Source: Harriotta raleighana (Eukaryota). Taken from it: 64,000 nt of DNA. The DNA is taken from the NCBI GenBank assembly GCA_050575255.1, contig JBNZDD010013687.1, positions 1,004,373 to 1,068,372 on the forward strand, read 5' to 3'. Positions 3,001 to 63,800 of the stretch are shown in pieces. The stretch's first letter is position 1; each line of letters opens with the position of its first letter. The position numbers are program-made.

Positions 3001-6000
3001 GGGTTAAGACATTCTGATTGAAGAAAAAGCAATAGAACTGAATTCCACATAAATAATTAGGAGATATTGAAGGTTAATTTAGTGCTATTTATTAATGGGG
3101 TTCTTTCATGAGAAATCTGAATCATGCTGAAAGTGAATGTACATTTAACTGATTCAGAATAACTAAGTTCTAAAATATTGGTACTACTTTGACAACTCGT
3201 GGGGGCTATGCCAGTTGCAGTAATTGACTTGTCATGTGCCTAGCAAAGGTGAAATAAATGAAGTATTTGTATTTCTTGTATTGGCTGAACAATAACTGGG
3301 GCTTTACATCTGCAGAGTTTGATGAAACACGAAAGTGTGAGGATTGTGCTTGGACTGGTCCTGGCCTTTGGAAATTACATGAATGGTGGGAACAGGACCC
3401 GTGGCCAGGCAGATGGATTTGGTCTGGAAATTCTTCCAAAGTTAAAGGATGTCAAAAGCAGAGTATGTTACATCTCTCTTAATTTTCTGACTGAAAACAA
3501 TATGTAATAACATTCAGGAATTAGCCGTTCTATGTAACACCTAAATTCGGTGAGTGAGAATCTCACAGTATTGGGAGGTATCATTGTTTTATTGTGATTC
3601 TTATAATCTCTGAGTGTGCACTAATATATGGTAAATGTCAATATTTATTGCAAAAAATAGACTGGCACAGTTCAATATTTAGATCATGATTTAACTGTAA
3701 CTATATTTTCTTGAAATAATAAATGTCAGTGTTTTTGTGCACTAATGTGTGTCTGGAATAGAAAACAGCTGTATTTTCCTAATTTCAGTGAAAACATTTT
3801 ATGAGTATTTCTTGTGACGAGTGTAGTTTTATAATCAGGGACTAGCAAAAGGTCAAAAAACAATGAGAGTGTAGCTGAAGCTATTTATTTTGTTTGAACG
3901 TGGCAGATGTTATGATTATCAAGAGCATTTGGTGGTGTTGCAATTTTGGAATCTCTGAATCTGAAATGTCAATCTGATTTCTTCATCACTGTTCCATTGT
4001 GCACATTCGTGGATTTTAAACTGCTGCATGGATGGTTAAGAGACCTTGTCTGCATTGTACCTTTCTCAACCATCCAAACATGCCACCCAACAACAAATAA
4101 GGCAAAAATGGAACCATTGAATAGATGGCAATGGGGCACAAATTCCTTTGAATCCAATACCAACTTGTAACATACTCAACATAAGAAAATGCCTGATAAA
4201 TACGTTTCAGAGATAAGCCAATATGCAGATGTCATAATTTTTGCTTCATGTGAATTACTTATTTTGTAATATTTATCTCGTTGGTGAGTGAAACACAGCA
4301 GCTATGATGCCACACTGTAAAATGTGGGAGAGTACAACTTTTACAAATTAATTGTATTAATTGCATTGTCTGCATTTCTTTGGGCTGAAGATTTTGCTTT
4401 GTCTTGATATCTTGCGTTATGCCTTTTCTTTTTCAAATGAATAATTTGGGGGCTTGAAAAGAAATCAGGTAACTAAGGATTATTAAATCTACAGAAAATC
4501 TCACTAAAGAAATCCGTGGAAAATTGGAACATTCAAGTTCAATGGTCTTGCCTAGTCTGAAACAGTTACTATGTTAAAGGTTGTTATATTGAATTCCCAT
4601 TTACTCTTCAATTGTAAATTTAGCTATGTGTTATATGTTTTTAAATTTGGGAGTGCAAATTACGCGTGGAACACCTACTGGAAGGAACGGGAAAGTAAAG
4701 TAATCCTGAAACAAATGGGGAGAATTATTGATGCTAGTGTTCTGTGTTTAGAGGAAACAGAGCTGTTTCCTGTTCGATTGGGCTACTCCTGTGCTAGTTA
4801 TCCAATGGTGAATAAACATTGCTAGAAAGCATAATGCTTTCACTGTATCCCTGGTATTCTGAATTCTAATCCTTTATTTTACTCTTTTAGGATAATCAGA
4901 TCAGCCTTGTGGATTACGTTGTATCCTATTATTTGCACAACGTTGACGAGGTAATTGATGGATCTTCAGCCAAGTTTTAGAAGGTTCTGTGACCACCTAA
5001 AGCTCCTCTTGTTTTACATTAACGGTTTTCAAACTGGATTTCCTTTCTCAGTATGTCCAACTATTGCTTTGTCTTTTTATTTTTGTCCTTGAAAAATTAA
5101 AATGATTACTAGTGCCCGAGGAAGATAACCTAATGAATAATTCATCAAATTAGCCCTAATGTAAATCAAAGCACATTTTAGTTTTTTTTTAATGGGCAGC
5201 AGTTTGGGAAATAGTTGAACCCGCTTTGAATCATTTTACTTTTAGAACAAATGATGTGTCCTTAATTTTCTTTTGTCAAAGCTGAACAGTGAGAGTTTCT
5301 TTGTTAACCTGTAACAGGACGCAGGAACAGACAAGAGTGTGTATCCTTTGCCGGAACCACAGAACTTCCTCCTGGCTTCCCAAGTTAAGTTTGAAGATCT
5401 TACGAAGGAACTTAGAAAGTTGAAAAGAGACCTTGAAGGTACATATCGAACCTTTTTAAAACATATAATACAAGGCATAGTTACATGTTGTAACGAATAT
5501 ATAAAAGAGATTGAACAGGATGTCTAAGGATAAAATGACAAAATTCTACCCAGTAAAGCCCACTAAACGCAGATGTATTTTAGTTGAGTAATGTTTATAC
5601 TACATCATAATTATTATGAAAGAGCTAGAAATAGGGTAATGTAGCTAAATTGTTTATTGCCGTGATTTCAAATGAAAAGCTTGCAGCTTCACGACAAAAA
5701 TGCTTACATTCGATGCCCACTTAAAAACACACATATATTTCAGCAAAGTAAGCACTTCCTAGCAGAGATTTGCTAAATGCTTTTAGTAGTACAAGCCATT
5801 TATGAACGAGTACATATTTAAGTGCTCCAAGACGCCTCATCACAAGAAGAGCGCTCTACAAATGCAAGTTTCCATTGTTGCGTTCAATAAAAGTGAAAAG
5901 GCAGTTTTATTGGAGAAGATTCTATCGAATCCTGGAGGTCAACAGTGGTAGGAAAGTATCAGTTGTTATTTATTCAACTCAGGCACACAGGAATACTCTT

Positions 6001-60802: not shown

Positions 60803-63800
60803 CCTTGCATTTGATATAGCGCTTTTCACATCTTATCAACGTCCCAAAGCGCTTCACAGAATATACTGTAAAGTGAATTGACTGTATATTTGTGGACGGA
60901 ACGCGGCAGCCAATTGCGCACAGCAGTGTCCCACAAACAGTCATGGATTGAAATGAACAATTTTATTATTGTGTTTTTTTTTTGGAGGGATTATTATTAG
61001 GCATGTGGAGTAAGGAAACTTGCCCAAGGTTTCGCCCTGATCTGCCTGGATTCGAACACAGGTCTCATGCTTGTAAGGCATGTAAGGCGAATGCTCTAAC
61101 CACTGAGCTACAGGAGCTCCACGGGGTTGGGGAAACAAACTAGAGAGTTGCTGTAAATTAATGACAAGCAATCTTGATACACCAAATATCATACTCCTGC
61201 TCTTTTTTTCCTGTAATAAATTCTGTTGAAAACTTAAAGATAATCTGGGAAAATTGATGCAGAACTTTCATTGCTTTTGCCAAACTTCTAAGGGTTTGGA
61301 GCAGGAGATTCCTGGCTCCACCAAGAATCACAAACAGAAAGGGAATTGGTTCTGCCAAGCCCCTACTCATCCAGTCTACGTAAAGCACTTGATCAATGCT
61401 ATGAATTCCTTTGCCACAGAACGAAGAGTGTCTACAGTACTGCCTTCCTTCAAAGAGTGCACAGCAATTAGCAGCAACATAGTCATTGTTAAAGTGATCC
61501 ATCATCTACATGGAGTCAGCCCTAAAATTAAGACATATTCTACTATCTTTCCCTCATCTTAGATCGTTCTGGGTAGCCCTATGTCAAGGTTCATCAGGTA
61601 AAACCTGGTATGTGAATGTATTACTCACATATAAATTATGTTTTTGTAGATACCTGTGATTTTGCTTCCGATGTTCCTCAAAAAATTCAACCCTTGTGAT
61701 TGCTTCAAGACGTTATCTGAAGTGAAAGTGTTATAAAATGCAAATTGTTGTTGTTATTCATATTTAACGGTTTCTGTGTGGGTTTTACATGTTTCTAAAA
61801 TAGGATTATTAATGTTTTATTGTTTCATATGGTGGGGCTTTATATGAATTAGATAAGACCTTGGAATGTGACTGGGATCAACTCTCCCATTTCAAAACAT
61901 AGGGATCCCAGCCATATTAAAATTGATTCAGTCTGATGTGATTCTGCTCTACAAGGACCTACTAATCTAATAAGGATTTAAACTGGCGTTTAACTTTGCA
62001 ATGTTGGGTAACATTCCCAATTTAGGGAAGGGCAGCCAAAATATAATGGCAGGTTATGTTTGAGAAGGATTAGATCGTGGTTTACGATAATGTGCATAAA
62101 AAAATCTCTGGAAGAGGGCTCAATTTTGTCCATTGGTTTGGTGGGTGTGTTGCGCTTACACGATCCAAATTATTGCTATTATCATTTGTTCTTTTCAAAT
62201 GTTCTGGGTTTGACTTAATGGATAACCAATGGGCATTTCTGAAATAATTTCAGGTTGAGAGAGGCGCAACTCTCTGTAAAGAAGATAACAGCAGAGAAGA
62301 AGGTTGAAACCAAGAAAATAAATCCTAATAGTCTGGTAAGATATTTATATATTCTTGTATTTGTCTATGAAGGTCAGCAGTGGTGAAGAAACGATATCAA
62401 ACACGAAATTTAACAGCTTGCCATCAACTGGTATTGAAAAATAAAGTACTATTGAACTTCCACAGAGGAGTTTTTCACATACCAAGAAAATATTAAGGCA
62501 ACAGATGTGCTCATTCACCAAATAATTTTTATTTGGTGCACTGGCATTACAAATAATGTGATCGTCTGATTCTGCTGAATAATATCAAAACAACAACAAC
62601 AAAATTGCATTTGTATAATGTCTTTCACATCAGAAGGCCATCCCAAGGTCGTGGACAGGTTACTGCTTCAGACCAAGCTAAGGACGGGAGGGGGGTGGAG
62701 GGGCGGGAGGCGGGGGTTGGAAAGACAAGACAAGTAAGGAGAAGAACAGATATCGTAAAAAAGGAAGGAGCAATTTGCAGGGTGAGGAGTGAAAACAAGC
62801 AAATTAATGGATAGTGAATTTAAAGAGTCAGAATGGACCAAATAGCCTTCTTCTGTGGTGAAAATTTCTATGGATCTATTGTCAATGACACTGAGCTTTT
62901 CTAACAGAAAGATAGAATGCGCCAGAGGGTGGCCAACACGACCACCAGCTGAACGGGACACGAGACACACTACATGACTTAACTCTTTGGATGCTGCCAA
63001 TGTTTGAAGAAGAGCTGGCATTAAAAAGCTTGAGTATCTTTGCATTTCTCGTTTGTAAAAAATCAACAACTCCGTGAGGAGATTTCCATTACCGTGATGA
63101 CTTGATGTTTCTTCCATTCCAAACCTTCTTGTTTCCAGTTGGCAGTGAAAGTGTTCATTATTTCTTCACACAACATTGGGAGTGGATGTGAGTCCAATTA
63201 GTTTATGCTATGTGAAATTGCTACTGGCAACATGAATATATTATCCCTTGGAGCTTATAGCCGCTGGCAATATTTGGCGCTACAGGTCAACGAATAAGAT
63301 TAGACACAAGAGCTAAAACATTCCTCATGTTGCTAAGTGAAATGACCCTGTGTTCGGCCTTTATGAACACACTTCGCTGTATTGAGCTGCATGAGGAATC
63401 TTTTGCCAAACGAATTCTGGAAATGCAAAAAAAAAACGAAAGCTAAAATACTATGAGGAGCATATTCCAGCTGTCACAACTGCTGTCCATTTGGCTGGTC
63501 CTATTTCTAAAATGATTGCTCTCTATCTCTCACACTTCCTATTCTTCGCCACCACCAGCATATTTTACATGAACTCCGTCTTCAAACTGACAATGTTATC
63601 TACCTCCACTGCCTCCCTGGTGAAATTTGTTCCACATATTCATCACCCGCTGTGTAAACGAGTTACGTCTTAATTGCCGTCTAGCTGTGGATTTCTTGAC
63701 TCTATCGAACGTGTCAATAGAATTCAGCTTCTTTATGCACTTTAGAATTAGAACATTTTAGTGAGACAATCCAATCATGTTTTCTGATGTAAACATGACT

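What the first reader, a model, noticed from the sequence alone, without database searches (positions are those of the whole stretch)
5439..62253. The four large FMN1 introns correspond to the Grem1 'global control region'; intron size jumps where the control region should begin
Seen: the first three introns are 2191, 1428 and 367 bp, and the next four are 11528, 10707, 15402 and 18883 bp. Established: mouse limb deformity alleles act by deleting Grem1 cis-regulatory DNA located in the 3' introns of Fmn1 (exons 19-23), and FMN1-GREM1 synteny is deeply conserved. Inference: counting back from the last coding exon, exons 5318 to 62335 match that interval, so most of this window is probably the fin-bud Grem1 regulatory landscape of a cartilaginous fish, with GREM1 downstream on the opposite strand.
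Basis: partly seen in the sequence, partly recalled or inferred. Interest (0 to 1): 0.7.

Follow-up and report, generated by a model that had tools for sequence, protein, structure and literature searches.

The report
Formin gene tail with large introns
This window holds the last part of a formin gene whose final introns are about ten times longer than the ones before them, which fits a published arrangement in which such introns carry switches for the neighbouring limb and fin gene GREM1, so it is ordinary and already described.

Summary
Eight plus-strand exons with GT..AG borders and compatible phases give introns of exactly 2191, 1428, 367, 11528, 10707, 15402 and 18883 nt.

Two exons match Pfam FH2 on their own, in colinear order. 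The gene is therefore a formin. FMN1 rather than FMN2 rests on my recall only.

The regulatory reading could not be tested:
- No vertebrate genome or protein reference was available.
- GREM1 and the last coding exon lie outside the window.
- GLI-like and HOX13-like sites are not enriched.
- Repeats found within the window cover only 8-13% of it. All lie beyond position 7022.

The idea is already in print:
- Zuniga 2012 linked the exon 19-22 distance to conserved Grem1 elements.
- Malkmus 2021 showed that the Grem1-Fmn1 landscape is conserved in elephant shark and bamboo shark. This includes the CRM2 core beside Fmn1 exon 22. The shark enhancers worked in mouse limb buds.
- Published enhancers 5-9 lie further 5' in Fmn1, so the size jump is not the start of the control region.

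Verdict: partly supported, already known, low interest. I do not take the window for human.

The parts
995..1124 (+). Exon E_a, FH2 domain
   Evidence: Pfam FH2 E 4.8e-5, profile 149-191/372. Weak DAAM1 FH2 hit, E 0.83, colinear with E_b. AG/GT borders.
3316..3462 (+). Exon E_b, FH2 core with the GNYMN motif
   Evidence: Pfam FH2 E 4e-15, profile 193-239/372. 17 of the 18 PDB hits with E<=1 are formin FH2 chains, best mDia1 at 5.1e-5.
4891..4950 (+). Exon E_c, 20 codons
   Evidence: Open frame, AG/GT borders, phase 0/0. No Pfam or PDB hit on its own.
5318..5438 (+). Exon E_d, presumed counterpart of mouse exon 19
   Evidence: Open frame, a stop 3 nt before the acceptor, AG/GT borders. No Pfam hit; one chance PDB hit at E 0.67. 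The numbering is inferred.
5439..16966 (+). Intron 4, 11528 nt
   Evidence: GT..AG. 11.8% covered by self-BLAST repeats, 19.2% by nhmmer.
16967..17059 (+). Exon E_e
   Evidence: Open frame, AG/GT borders, phase fits its neighbours. No Pfam or PDB hit.
17060..27766 (+). Intron 5, 10707 nt
   Evidence: GT..AG. Repeats cover 6.3% / 7.5%.
27767..27818 (+). Exon E_f, a 52-nt micro-exon and the weakest part of the model
   Evidence: An exon of length 1 mod 3 is needed between E_e and E_g to keep the frame. This one fits, with AG and GTAGTG borders. It is too short (16 codons) to search.
27819..43220 (+). Intron 6, 15402 nt
   Evidence: GT..AG. Repeats cover 8.5% / 15.9%. Holds a LINE reverse-transcriptase remnant at 31535-32149(-).
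43221..43370 (+). Exon E_g, presumed counterpart of mouse Fmn1 exon 22, the exon that published work calls part of Grem1 enhancer CRM2
   Evidence: 49 open codons, AG/GT borders. No Pfam hit; one chance PDB hit (venom allergen 3, E 0.034). Atlas lead only: rank 3 cluster, score 0.91, FH2 in 13% of members, Chordata. The numbering is inferred.
40772..47230 (.). Repeat-free stretch around E_g, where a CRM2 core element would be looked for first
   Evidence: Largest gap between repeat blocks, but not unusual in size (P=0.41). No significant GLI or HOX13 clustering. It is a candidate by position only.
43371..62253 (+). Intron 7, 18883 nt
   Evidence: GT..AG. Repeats cover 10.4% / 13.1%.
62254..62335 (+). 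Exon E_h, tail region; ends in phase 0 with a strong GTAAGA donor
   Evidence: No Pfam or PDB hit. The following coding exon was not seen in 62336-64000.

Best explanation
The window is the 3' part of an FMN-type formin gene on the + strand. It runs from the middle of the FH2 domain to what is probably the second-to-last coding exon. The gene is most likely FMN1, from a non-mammalian vertebrate, probably a shark.

The four large introns sit where mouse Fmn1 exons 19-23 lie. Published work puts Grem1 enhancer cluster EC1 (the former 'global control region') in that interval. Of that cluster, only the core element of CRM2, beside exon 22, is reported as conserved down to cartilaginous fishes.

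The most likely content is therefore one deeply conserved Grem1 enhancer core near E_g (43221-43370). It would sit in intron DNA that is otherwise largely unconstrained and carries SINE and LINE debris. By the published mechanism, GLI, HOX13 and SMAD4 complexes bind such intronic elements, which then contact the promoter of a convergent GREM1 downstream, with the formin gene as a bystander host.

Shown here: the exons, the FH2 identity, the intron sizes and the repeat distribution. Inferred: FMN1 orthology, the exon numbering, the presence of the enhancer and all of the mechanism. The jump in intron size is not the start of the control region.
For: - Exon model and intron sizes.
- FH2 matches of E_a and E_b in colinear order. 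Formin FH2 chains in PDB.
- No other protein family among 150 of the 163 frames of >=67 aa, apart from one weak RVT_1 and one chance-level Dopey_N.
- Literature, as passages and sections read:
  - PMC8455560: landscape conserved in elephant shark and bamboo shark; exon 22 is 'an integral part of CRM2 in all species'; shark CRM2 and CRM5 were active in mouse limb buds (6/6, 4/4, 5/5, 4/4 expressing embryos); GCR = EC1 = CRM2-4.
[quoted passage not shown] Here the span from the start of E_d to the end of E_g is 38053 nt.
  - PMC10153463: Grem1 lies about 40 kb from Fmn1 in the opposite orientation.
- My recall, from no call: the residues of E_c to E_h resemble FMN1 more than FMN2, and the SINE and LINE families resemble elasmobranch repeats.
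Against: - Nothing in the window was shown to be regulatory or conserved.
- The GLI consensus GACCACCCA has 0 perfect sites and 9 with one mismatch.
- The densest cluster of sites with <=2 mismatches is 8 in 1214 nt at 44101-45314. Shuffled sequences reach that in 38% (global) and 48% (local) of 200 shuffles each.
- HOX13-like sites are not enriched at E_g. There is no CpG island.
- The repeat-free gap around E_g is of ordinary size (P=0.41).
- 5 of the 7 exon pieces sent to Pfam gave nothing on their own.
- PDB gave no formin hit for E_c, E_d, E_e, E_g or E_h.
- FMN1 against FMN2 was not resolved by any tool. The two Atlas calls gave only a weak FH2/Chordata lead and a useless bacterial list.
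- GREM1 and the terminal exon were not seen.
Confidence: 0.6

Rival explanations
1. The size jump is neutral. The 3' introns simply accumulated more insertions and unconstrained DNA, while the tightly spaced FH2 exons resist insertions. The size pattern then says nothing about regulation, and this species may hold no Grem1 enhancer in these introns.
For: All 35 repeat blocks lie beyond position 7022 (P=0.008 for an empty first 7 kb). About 15 copies of a tRNA-derived SINE and three CR1-like LINE ends sit in the large introns. There is no motif enrichment. The order of intron sizes is only a 1-in-35 pattern.
Against: Recognised repeats explain only 6-19% of each large intron. This is a lower bound, because no repeat library was available. 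Published work found the CRM2 core beside exon 22 in both cartilaginous fishes examined. It also found that the exon 19-22 distance tracks the presence of conserved elements across vertebrates.
Confidence: 0.2
2. The gene is the paralogue FMN2 or another FMN-type duplicate, so there is no link to GREM1.
For: No tool used here separates FMN1 from FMN2. Pfam and PDB report only a generic FH2 domain. The formin-Spir tail, which would be diagnostic, lies in an exon outside the window.
Against: Recall only: the residues of E_c-E_h resemble FMN1 and differ from FMN2 where the two paralogues differ. No call supports this.
Confidence: 0.1
3. One reading: most of the 57 kb of large introns is a working fin-bud Grem1 landscape, and the first large intron marks its border.
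For: The position matches mouse EC1/GCR. The published Hi-C and 4C data for mouse put the 3' part of Fmn1 inside the Grem1 domain.
Against: Only the CRM2 core within EC1 is reported as conserved to fishes. CRM3 is reported only down to Sauropsida. Enhancers 5-9 lie further 5' in Fmn1, beyond the short introns, so the border claim fails on the mouse and human map. Nothing in the window supports dense regulatory content.
Confidence: 0.1

Closest known systems
Mouse Fmn1-Grem1 regulatory landscape: GCR/EC1 with CRM2 (GRS1; core element = HMCO1), CRM3 (HMCO2) and CRM4 (GRE1)
   Same: Enhancers of one gene sit in the 3' introns of a formin gene. A conserved exon (22) is flanked by the key element. 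The target gene is convergent and downstream (PMC8455560, PMC3541112, PMC10153463).
   Different: No enhancer was shown here. [quoted passage not shown] GREM1 was not seen.
Elephant shark and bamboo shark Grem1-Fmn1 loci (Malkmus et al. 2021)
   Same: Probably the same kind of animal and the same locus. The published CRM2 core beside exon 22 is what this window would be expected to hold.
   Different: I could not align the window to those loci. Whether the species is the same was not asked.
Other bystander-gene landscapes: the Shh ZRS in Lmbr1 and the HoxD GCR near Lnp (recalled; the HoxD GCR paper was seen only in reference lists)
   Same: Long-range limb enhancers housed in the introns or flank of an unrelated neighbour.
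   Different: Different genes. This is an analogy only.
FMN2, the vertebrate paralogue of FMN1
   Same: FH2 domain with the same core motif, and also a large gene.
   Different: It is not linked to GREM1 (recalled). The two could not be told apart with the tools open here.

Membership tests
Formins (FH2-domain proteins) | Match to the FH2 domain profile | tested here: met
   E_a E 4.8e-5 and E_b E 4e-15 against PF02181, at colinear profile positions. E_b alone (56.3 bits) exceeds the 34.8-bit cut-off; E_a alone (23.1 bits) does not. Formin FH2 chains in PDB.
FMN subfamily, FMN1 orthologue | Groups with FMN1 and not FMN2 in comparison with reference proteins | not testable with these tools
PDB holds no FMN1 or FMN2 FH2 chain among the hits. 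Atlas was uninformative. The assignment rests on recall.
FMN subfamily | C-terminal formin-Spir interaction tail | tested here: inconclusive
   E_h gave 0 PDB hits at E<=10. The last coding exon was not seen in 62336-64000.
FMN1-GREM1 syntenic block | Convergent GREM1 (DAN domain) downstream of the formin 3' end | not testable with these tools
   Only 1665 nt follow E_h. The frame 62671-63165(-) has no Pfam match. In mouse the gap is about 40 kb, so absence from the window says nothing.
Grem1 enhancer CRM2 / GCR-EC1 | Conserved non-coding core element adjacent to Fmn1 exon 22 | not testable with these tools
Grem1 enhancer CRM2 / GCR-EC1 | [quoted passage not shown] | tested here: inconclusive
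   Consensus-with-mismatch scans, not the paper's matrices. There was no enrichment above shuffles. The paper used lenient matrices (p<0.01) and noted GLI-bound regions that lack consensus sites.
Grem1 enhancer CRM2 / GCR-EC1 | Open, H3K27-acetylated chromatin in fin or limb buds, contact with the Grem1 promoter, and reporter activity | not testable with these tools
   These are experimental features.

The most novel reading that the evidence does not exclude
In this lineage the interval between presumed exons 19 and 23 has grown to 57 kb of intron because it holds several fin enhancers of GREM1 beyond the one published deeply conserved core. That would mean an EC1-like enhancer cluster predates bony vertebrates rather than being assembled later in tetrapods.
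Probability: 0.1. Interest if true: 0.5.

Novelty: already known. Interest (0 to 1): 0.15.

Why it matters
If the reading holds, the window is one more cartilaginous-fish copy of a textbook case of enhancers housed in a neighbour gene, the limb deformity locus. It could add a data point on how the exon 19-22 interval grew during vertebrate evolution.

The central points are already in print:
- conservation of the landscape in sharks;
- the CRM2 core beside exon 22;
- its dependence on GLI and HOX13 sites;
- the link between intron length and conserved elements (PMC8455560, PMC3541112).

The finding therefore opens no new question.

Tried and rejected
1. GLI motif scan. There were 0 perfect sites, 9 with one mismatch and 103 with <=2 mismatches. 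The top cluster, 8 sites at 44101-45314 just 3' of E_g, looked promising, but 38-48% of 200+200 shuffles reach it. Rejected as chance.
2. HOX13-like scan (44 sites at <=1 mismatch, 419 at <=2). The top windows are at 32.9-34.4 kb and 46.1-47.4 kb, not at E_g. No claim is made from it.
3. CpG islands: none.
4. The repeat-free gap round E_g as a sign of constraint: of ordinary size (P=0.41).
5. PDB search for the formin-Spir tail with E_h: 0 hits.
6. PDB with E_g and E_d gave only chance hits: venom allergen 3 at E 0.034 and an uncharacterised protein at E 0.67.
7. Atlas on E_g and E_d, to separate FMN1 from FMN2. E_g gave a weak FH2/Chordata lead. E_d gave only bacterial clusters at <=0.84.
8. 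Full-text search for a 7-residue stretch of E_h: 0 papers.
9. Zuniga et al. 2004 is not held, by DOI or by PMC id. The 'exons 19-23' figure is therefore recalled, not seen.
10. Pfam census of long frames, looking for nested genes or transposon proteins. Of 150 frames scanned, 2 matched FH2, 1 matched RVT_1 weakly and 1 matched Dopey_N at E 0.0078, which is chance-level for 150 scans.
11. Rfam: only two tRNA-like SINE heads.

Not run:
- The joined-exon model was not built or searched, by instruction.
- Structure prediction, fold search and complex prediction were not used, because no claim needs them.
- The single genome-contig scan was not used, because that collection holds only bacteria and archaea.
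- The closed protein searches and contig collections left FMN1/FMN2 orthology and all conservation unchecked.
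Full report
**What is in the window**

The window is 64000 nt long with no N, GC 37.8% and CpG o/e 0.335. That composition is typical of a methylated vertebrate genome.

I do not take it for human, for three reasons. A 23-nt Alu motif has 0 matches at up to 3 mismatches. The interspersed repeats are a tRNA-derived SINE with an (ATT)n tail and CR1-like LINE ends that are 94% alike. The formin exons also differ from what I recall of the human protein. I recall the repeat families as typical of sharks, but no tool here could test the taxon.

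**Check of the observation**

| Exon | Coordinates (+ strand) |
|---|---|
| E_a | 995-1124 |
| E_b | 3316-3462 |
| E_c | 4891-4950 |
| E_d | 5318-5438 |
| E_e | 16967-17059 |
| E_f | 27767-27818 |
| E_g | 43221-43370 |
| E_h | 62254-62335 |

All seven introns are GT..AG, and the phases fit at every junction. The intron lengths are exactly 2191, 1428, 367, 11528, 10707, 15402 and 18883 nt.

As a pattern it is modest. Three small introns followed by four large ones is 1 of 35 possible orders.

**Identity of the gene**

I did not build or search a joined coding sequence, so no whole-domain score exists.

- **Pfam.** Seven of the eight exon pieces were long enough to send. Two matched FH2: E_a (E 4.8e-5, profile 149-191/372) and E_b (E 4e-15, 193-239/372), in colinear order. 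Five gave nothing alone.
- **PDB.** E_b matched FH2 chains of mDia1, DAAM1, INF2, FMNL3, Bni1 and a protist formin, which made up 17 of the 18 hits at E<=1. E_a hit DAAM1 weakly (E 0.83), 50 residues before the E_b match. E_c, E_e and E_h had no hits. E_d and E_g had only chance hits.
- **Conclusion.** The gene is a formin, read from mid-FH2 into the tail.
- **FMN1 against FMN2.** This could not be tested. From memory, the residues of E_c to E_h follow FMN1 where the two paralogues differ. I put FMN1 at about 0.85-0.9 on that basis alone.

**What is missing from the window**

- E_h ends in phase 0 at a strong donor. I saw no plausible terminal coding exon in the three frames of 62336-64000, so the last coding exon lies beyond the window.
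If exactly one coding exon follows, E_d..E_h are exons 19..23 in the mouse numbering and E_g is exon 22.
- GREM1 is not in the window. The 165-codon minus-strand frame at 62671-63165 has no Pfam match. With about 40 kb between the genes in mouse, its absence here says nothing.

**Content of the large introns**

- Self-BLAST finds 142 off-diagonal matches covering 8.4% of the window: 0% in positions 1-7158 and 6.3-11.8% in the four large introns.
- nhmmer with 18 seed elements raises coverage to 12.6%, seeds included, in 35 blocks. None lies before 7023.
- An empty first 7 kb is unlikely under random placement (P=0.008).
- Among 150 of the 163 frames of >=67 aa, Pfam finds 2 FH2 matches (the exons), one weak RVT_1 (31535-32149 minus, E 6.5e-4) and one chance-level Dopey_N.
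- Rfam and ARAGORN find only tRNA-like SINE heads. There is no CpG island.

Recognisable repeats therefore explain only a minor part of the extra length. This is a lower bound, since I had no repeat library. There is no nested gene.

**Search for signs of an enhancer**

- The GLI consensus has no perfect site and 9 sites with one mismatch.
- At <=2 mismatches, the densest 1214-nt window of the whole sequence lies at 44101-45314, just 3' of E_g, with 8 sites. Shuffles reach 8 or more in 38% (global) and 48% (local 1-kb blocks) of 200 runs each.
- HOX13-like sites are not enriched at E_g.
- The 6.5-kb repeat-free gap around E_g is of ordinary size (P=0.41).

None of this supports or excludes an enhancer. 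The published work used lenient matrices and noted GLI-bound regions without consensus sites.

**What is already known**

- **Zuniga et al. 2012** (PMC3541112, passages). HMCO1 lies next to Fmn1 exon 22 and HMCO3 lies close to exon 19. The value here is 38 kb.
- **Malkmus et al. 2021** (PMC8455560, sections 9 and 10 plus passages). The authors aligned the Grem1 domain of 14 species, including elephant shark and bamboo shark. They found CRM2, CRM5 and CRM8 to be ancient, and stated that exon 22 is an integral part of CRM2 in all species. Both shark CRM2 and CRM5 drove expression in mouse limb buds. [quoted passage not shown] GCR is renamed EC1 (CRM2-4).
- **Andrey and Duboule 2023** (PMC10153463, passages). 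Enhancers 5-9 lie in the more 5' part of Fmn1. Some ld alleles hit Grem1 itself.
- **Zuniga et al. 2004** is not held, so the 'exons 19-23' figure is recalled.
- **Supplements.** The supplements with the shark coordinates and the shark-referenced conservation plots are closed. They may bear directly on where the core element lies.

**Verdict**

The strong claims are not supported: that most of the window is regulatory landscape, and that the size jump marks where it begins. The second does not fit the published mouse and human map. The testable points could not be tested with the tools open here: FMN1 orthology, GREM1 downstream and non-coding conservation.

The best explanation is the 3' part of FMN1, probably holding the published CRM2 core beside E_g, in otherwise ordinary intron DNA. 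I give it 0.6. The idea is already in print for two cartilaginous fishes, so novelty is 'already known' and interest is low.

Noticed in passing
window 13044-13353(-), 36502-36790(+), 49871-50153(+), 54301-54608(+), 60776-61120(-), plus about ten shorter copies (e.g. 7159-7271, 8025-8188, 28268-28436, 39029-39123, 40700-40767, 58908-59110): A tRNA-derived SINE family of about 330 nt. The head is tRNA-like: Rfam tRNA at 13280-13351(-) and 36502-36573(+), and ARAGORN calls the first one tRNA-Ala(TGC). The body is conserved and the tail is (ATT)n. Mean column identity among five long copies is 71%. I recall it as elasmobranch-like; this was not tested.
   Followed up: partly
window 31054-31329, 22505-22773, 57737-57847 (inverted); 31535-32149(-): Three copies of a LINE 3' end, 86-94% alike, ending in a repeated 8-nt unit as I recall for CR1-type elements. 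One copy continues into a 205-codon frame with a weak RVT_1 match, E 6.5e-4. The high identity suggests fairly recent activity.
   Followed up: partly
window 10611-11159(-), with related pieces at 10624-10692, 33306-33374, 51868-51943, 58153-58221 and 62589-62657: A second repeat family starting with (AAC)n. One copy sits at the end of a 183-codon open frame with no Pfam match. From recall the frame looks like the C-terminal part of a LINE protein.
   Followed up: partly
window 15477-15789 and 47230-47520; 18505-18554 and 29780-29829; 20722-20779, 22075-22132 and 29658-29715: Further low-copy interspersed repeat families, 79-92% alike and unclassified.
   Followed up: no
window 1-7022: The stretch with the four closely spaced FH2 exons holds none of the 35 repeat blocks (P=0.008 under random placement). 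This suggests selection against insertions there, or recent growth of the other introns only.
   Followed up: yes
window 62671-63165(-), 50824-51401(-), 56311-56760(+), 23709-24128(+): Stop-free frames of 140-165 codons, with no Pfam match and no copies elsewhere in the window. My own unrun estimate from base composition is that about 0.1 frames of 165 codons are expected in the window. Their origin is unexplained.
   Followed up: partly
window 55943-56016: A tandem repeat of a 22-nt unit, 3.4 copies, 96% matches.
   Followed up: no
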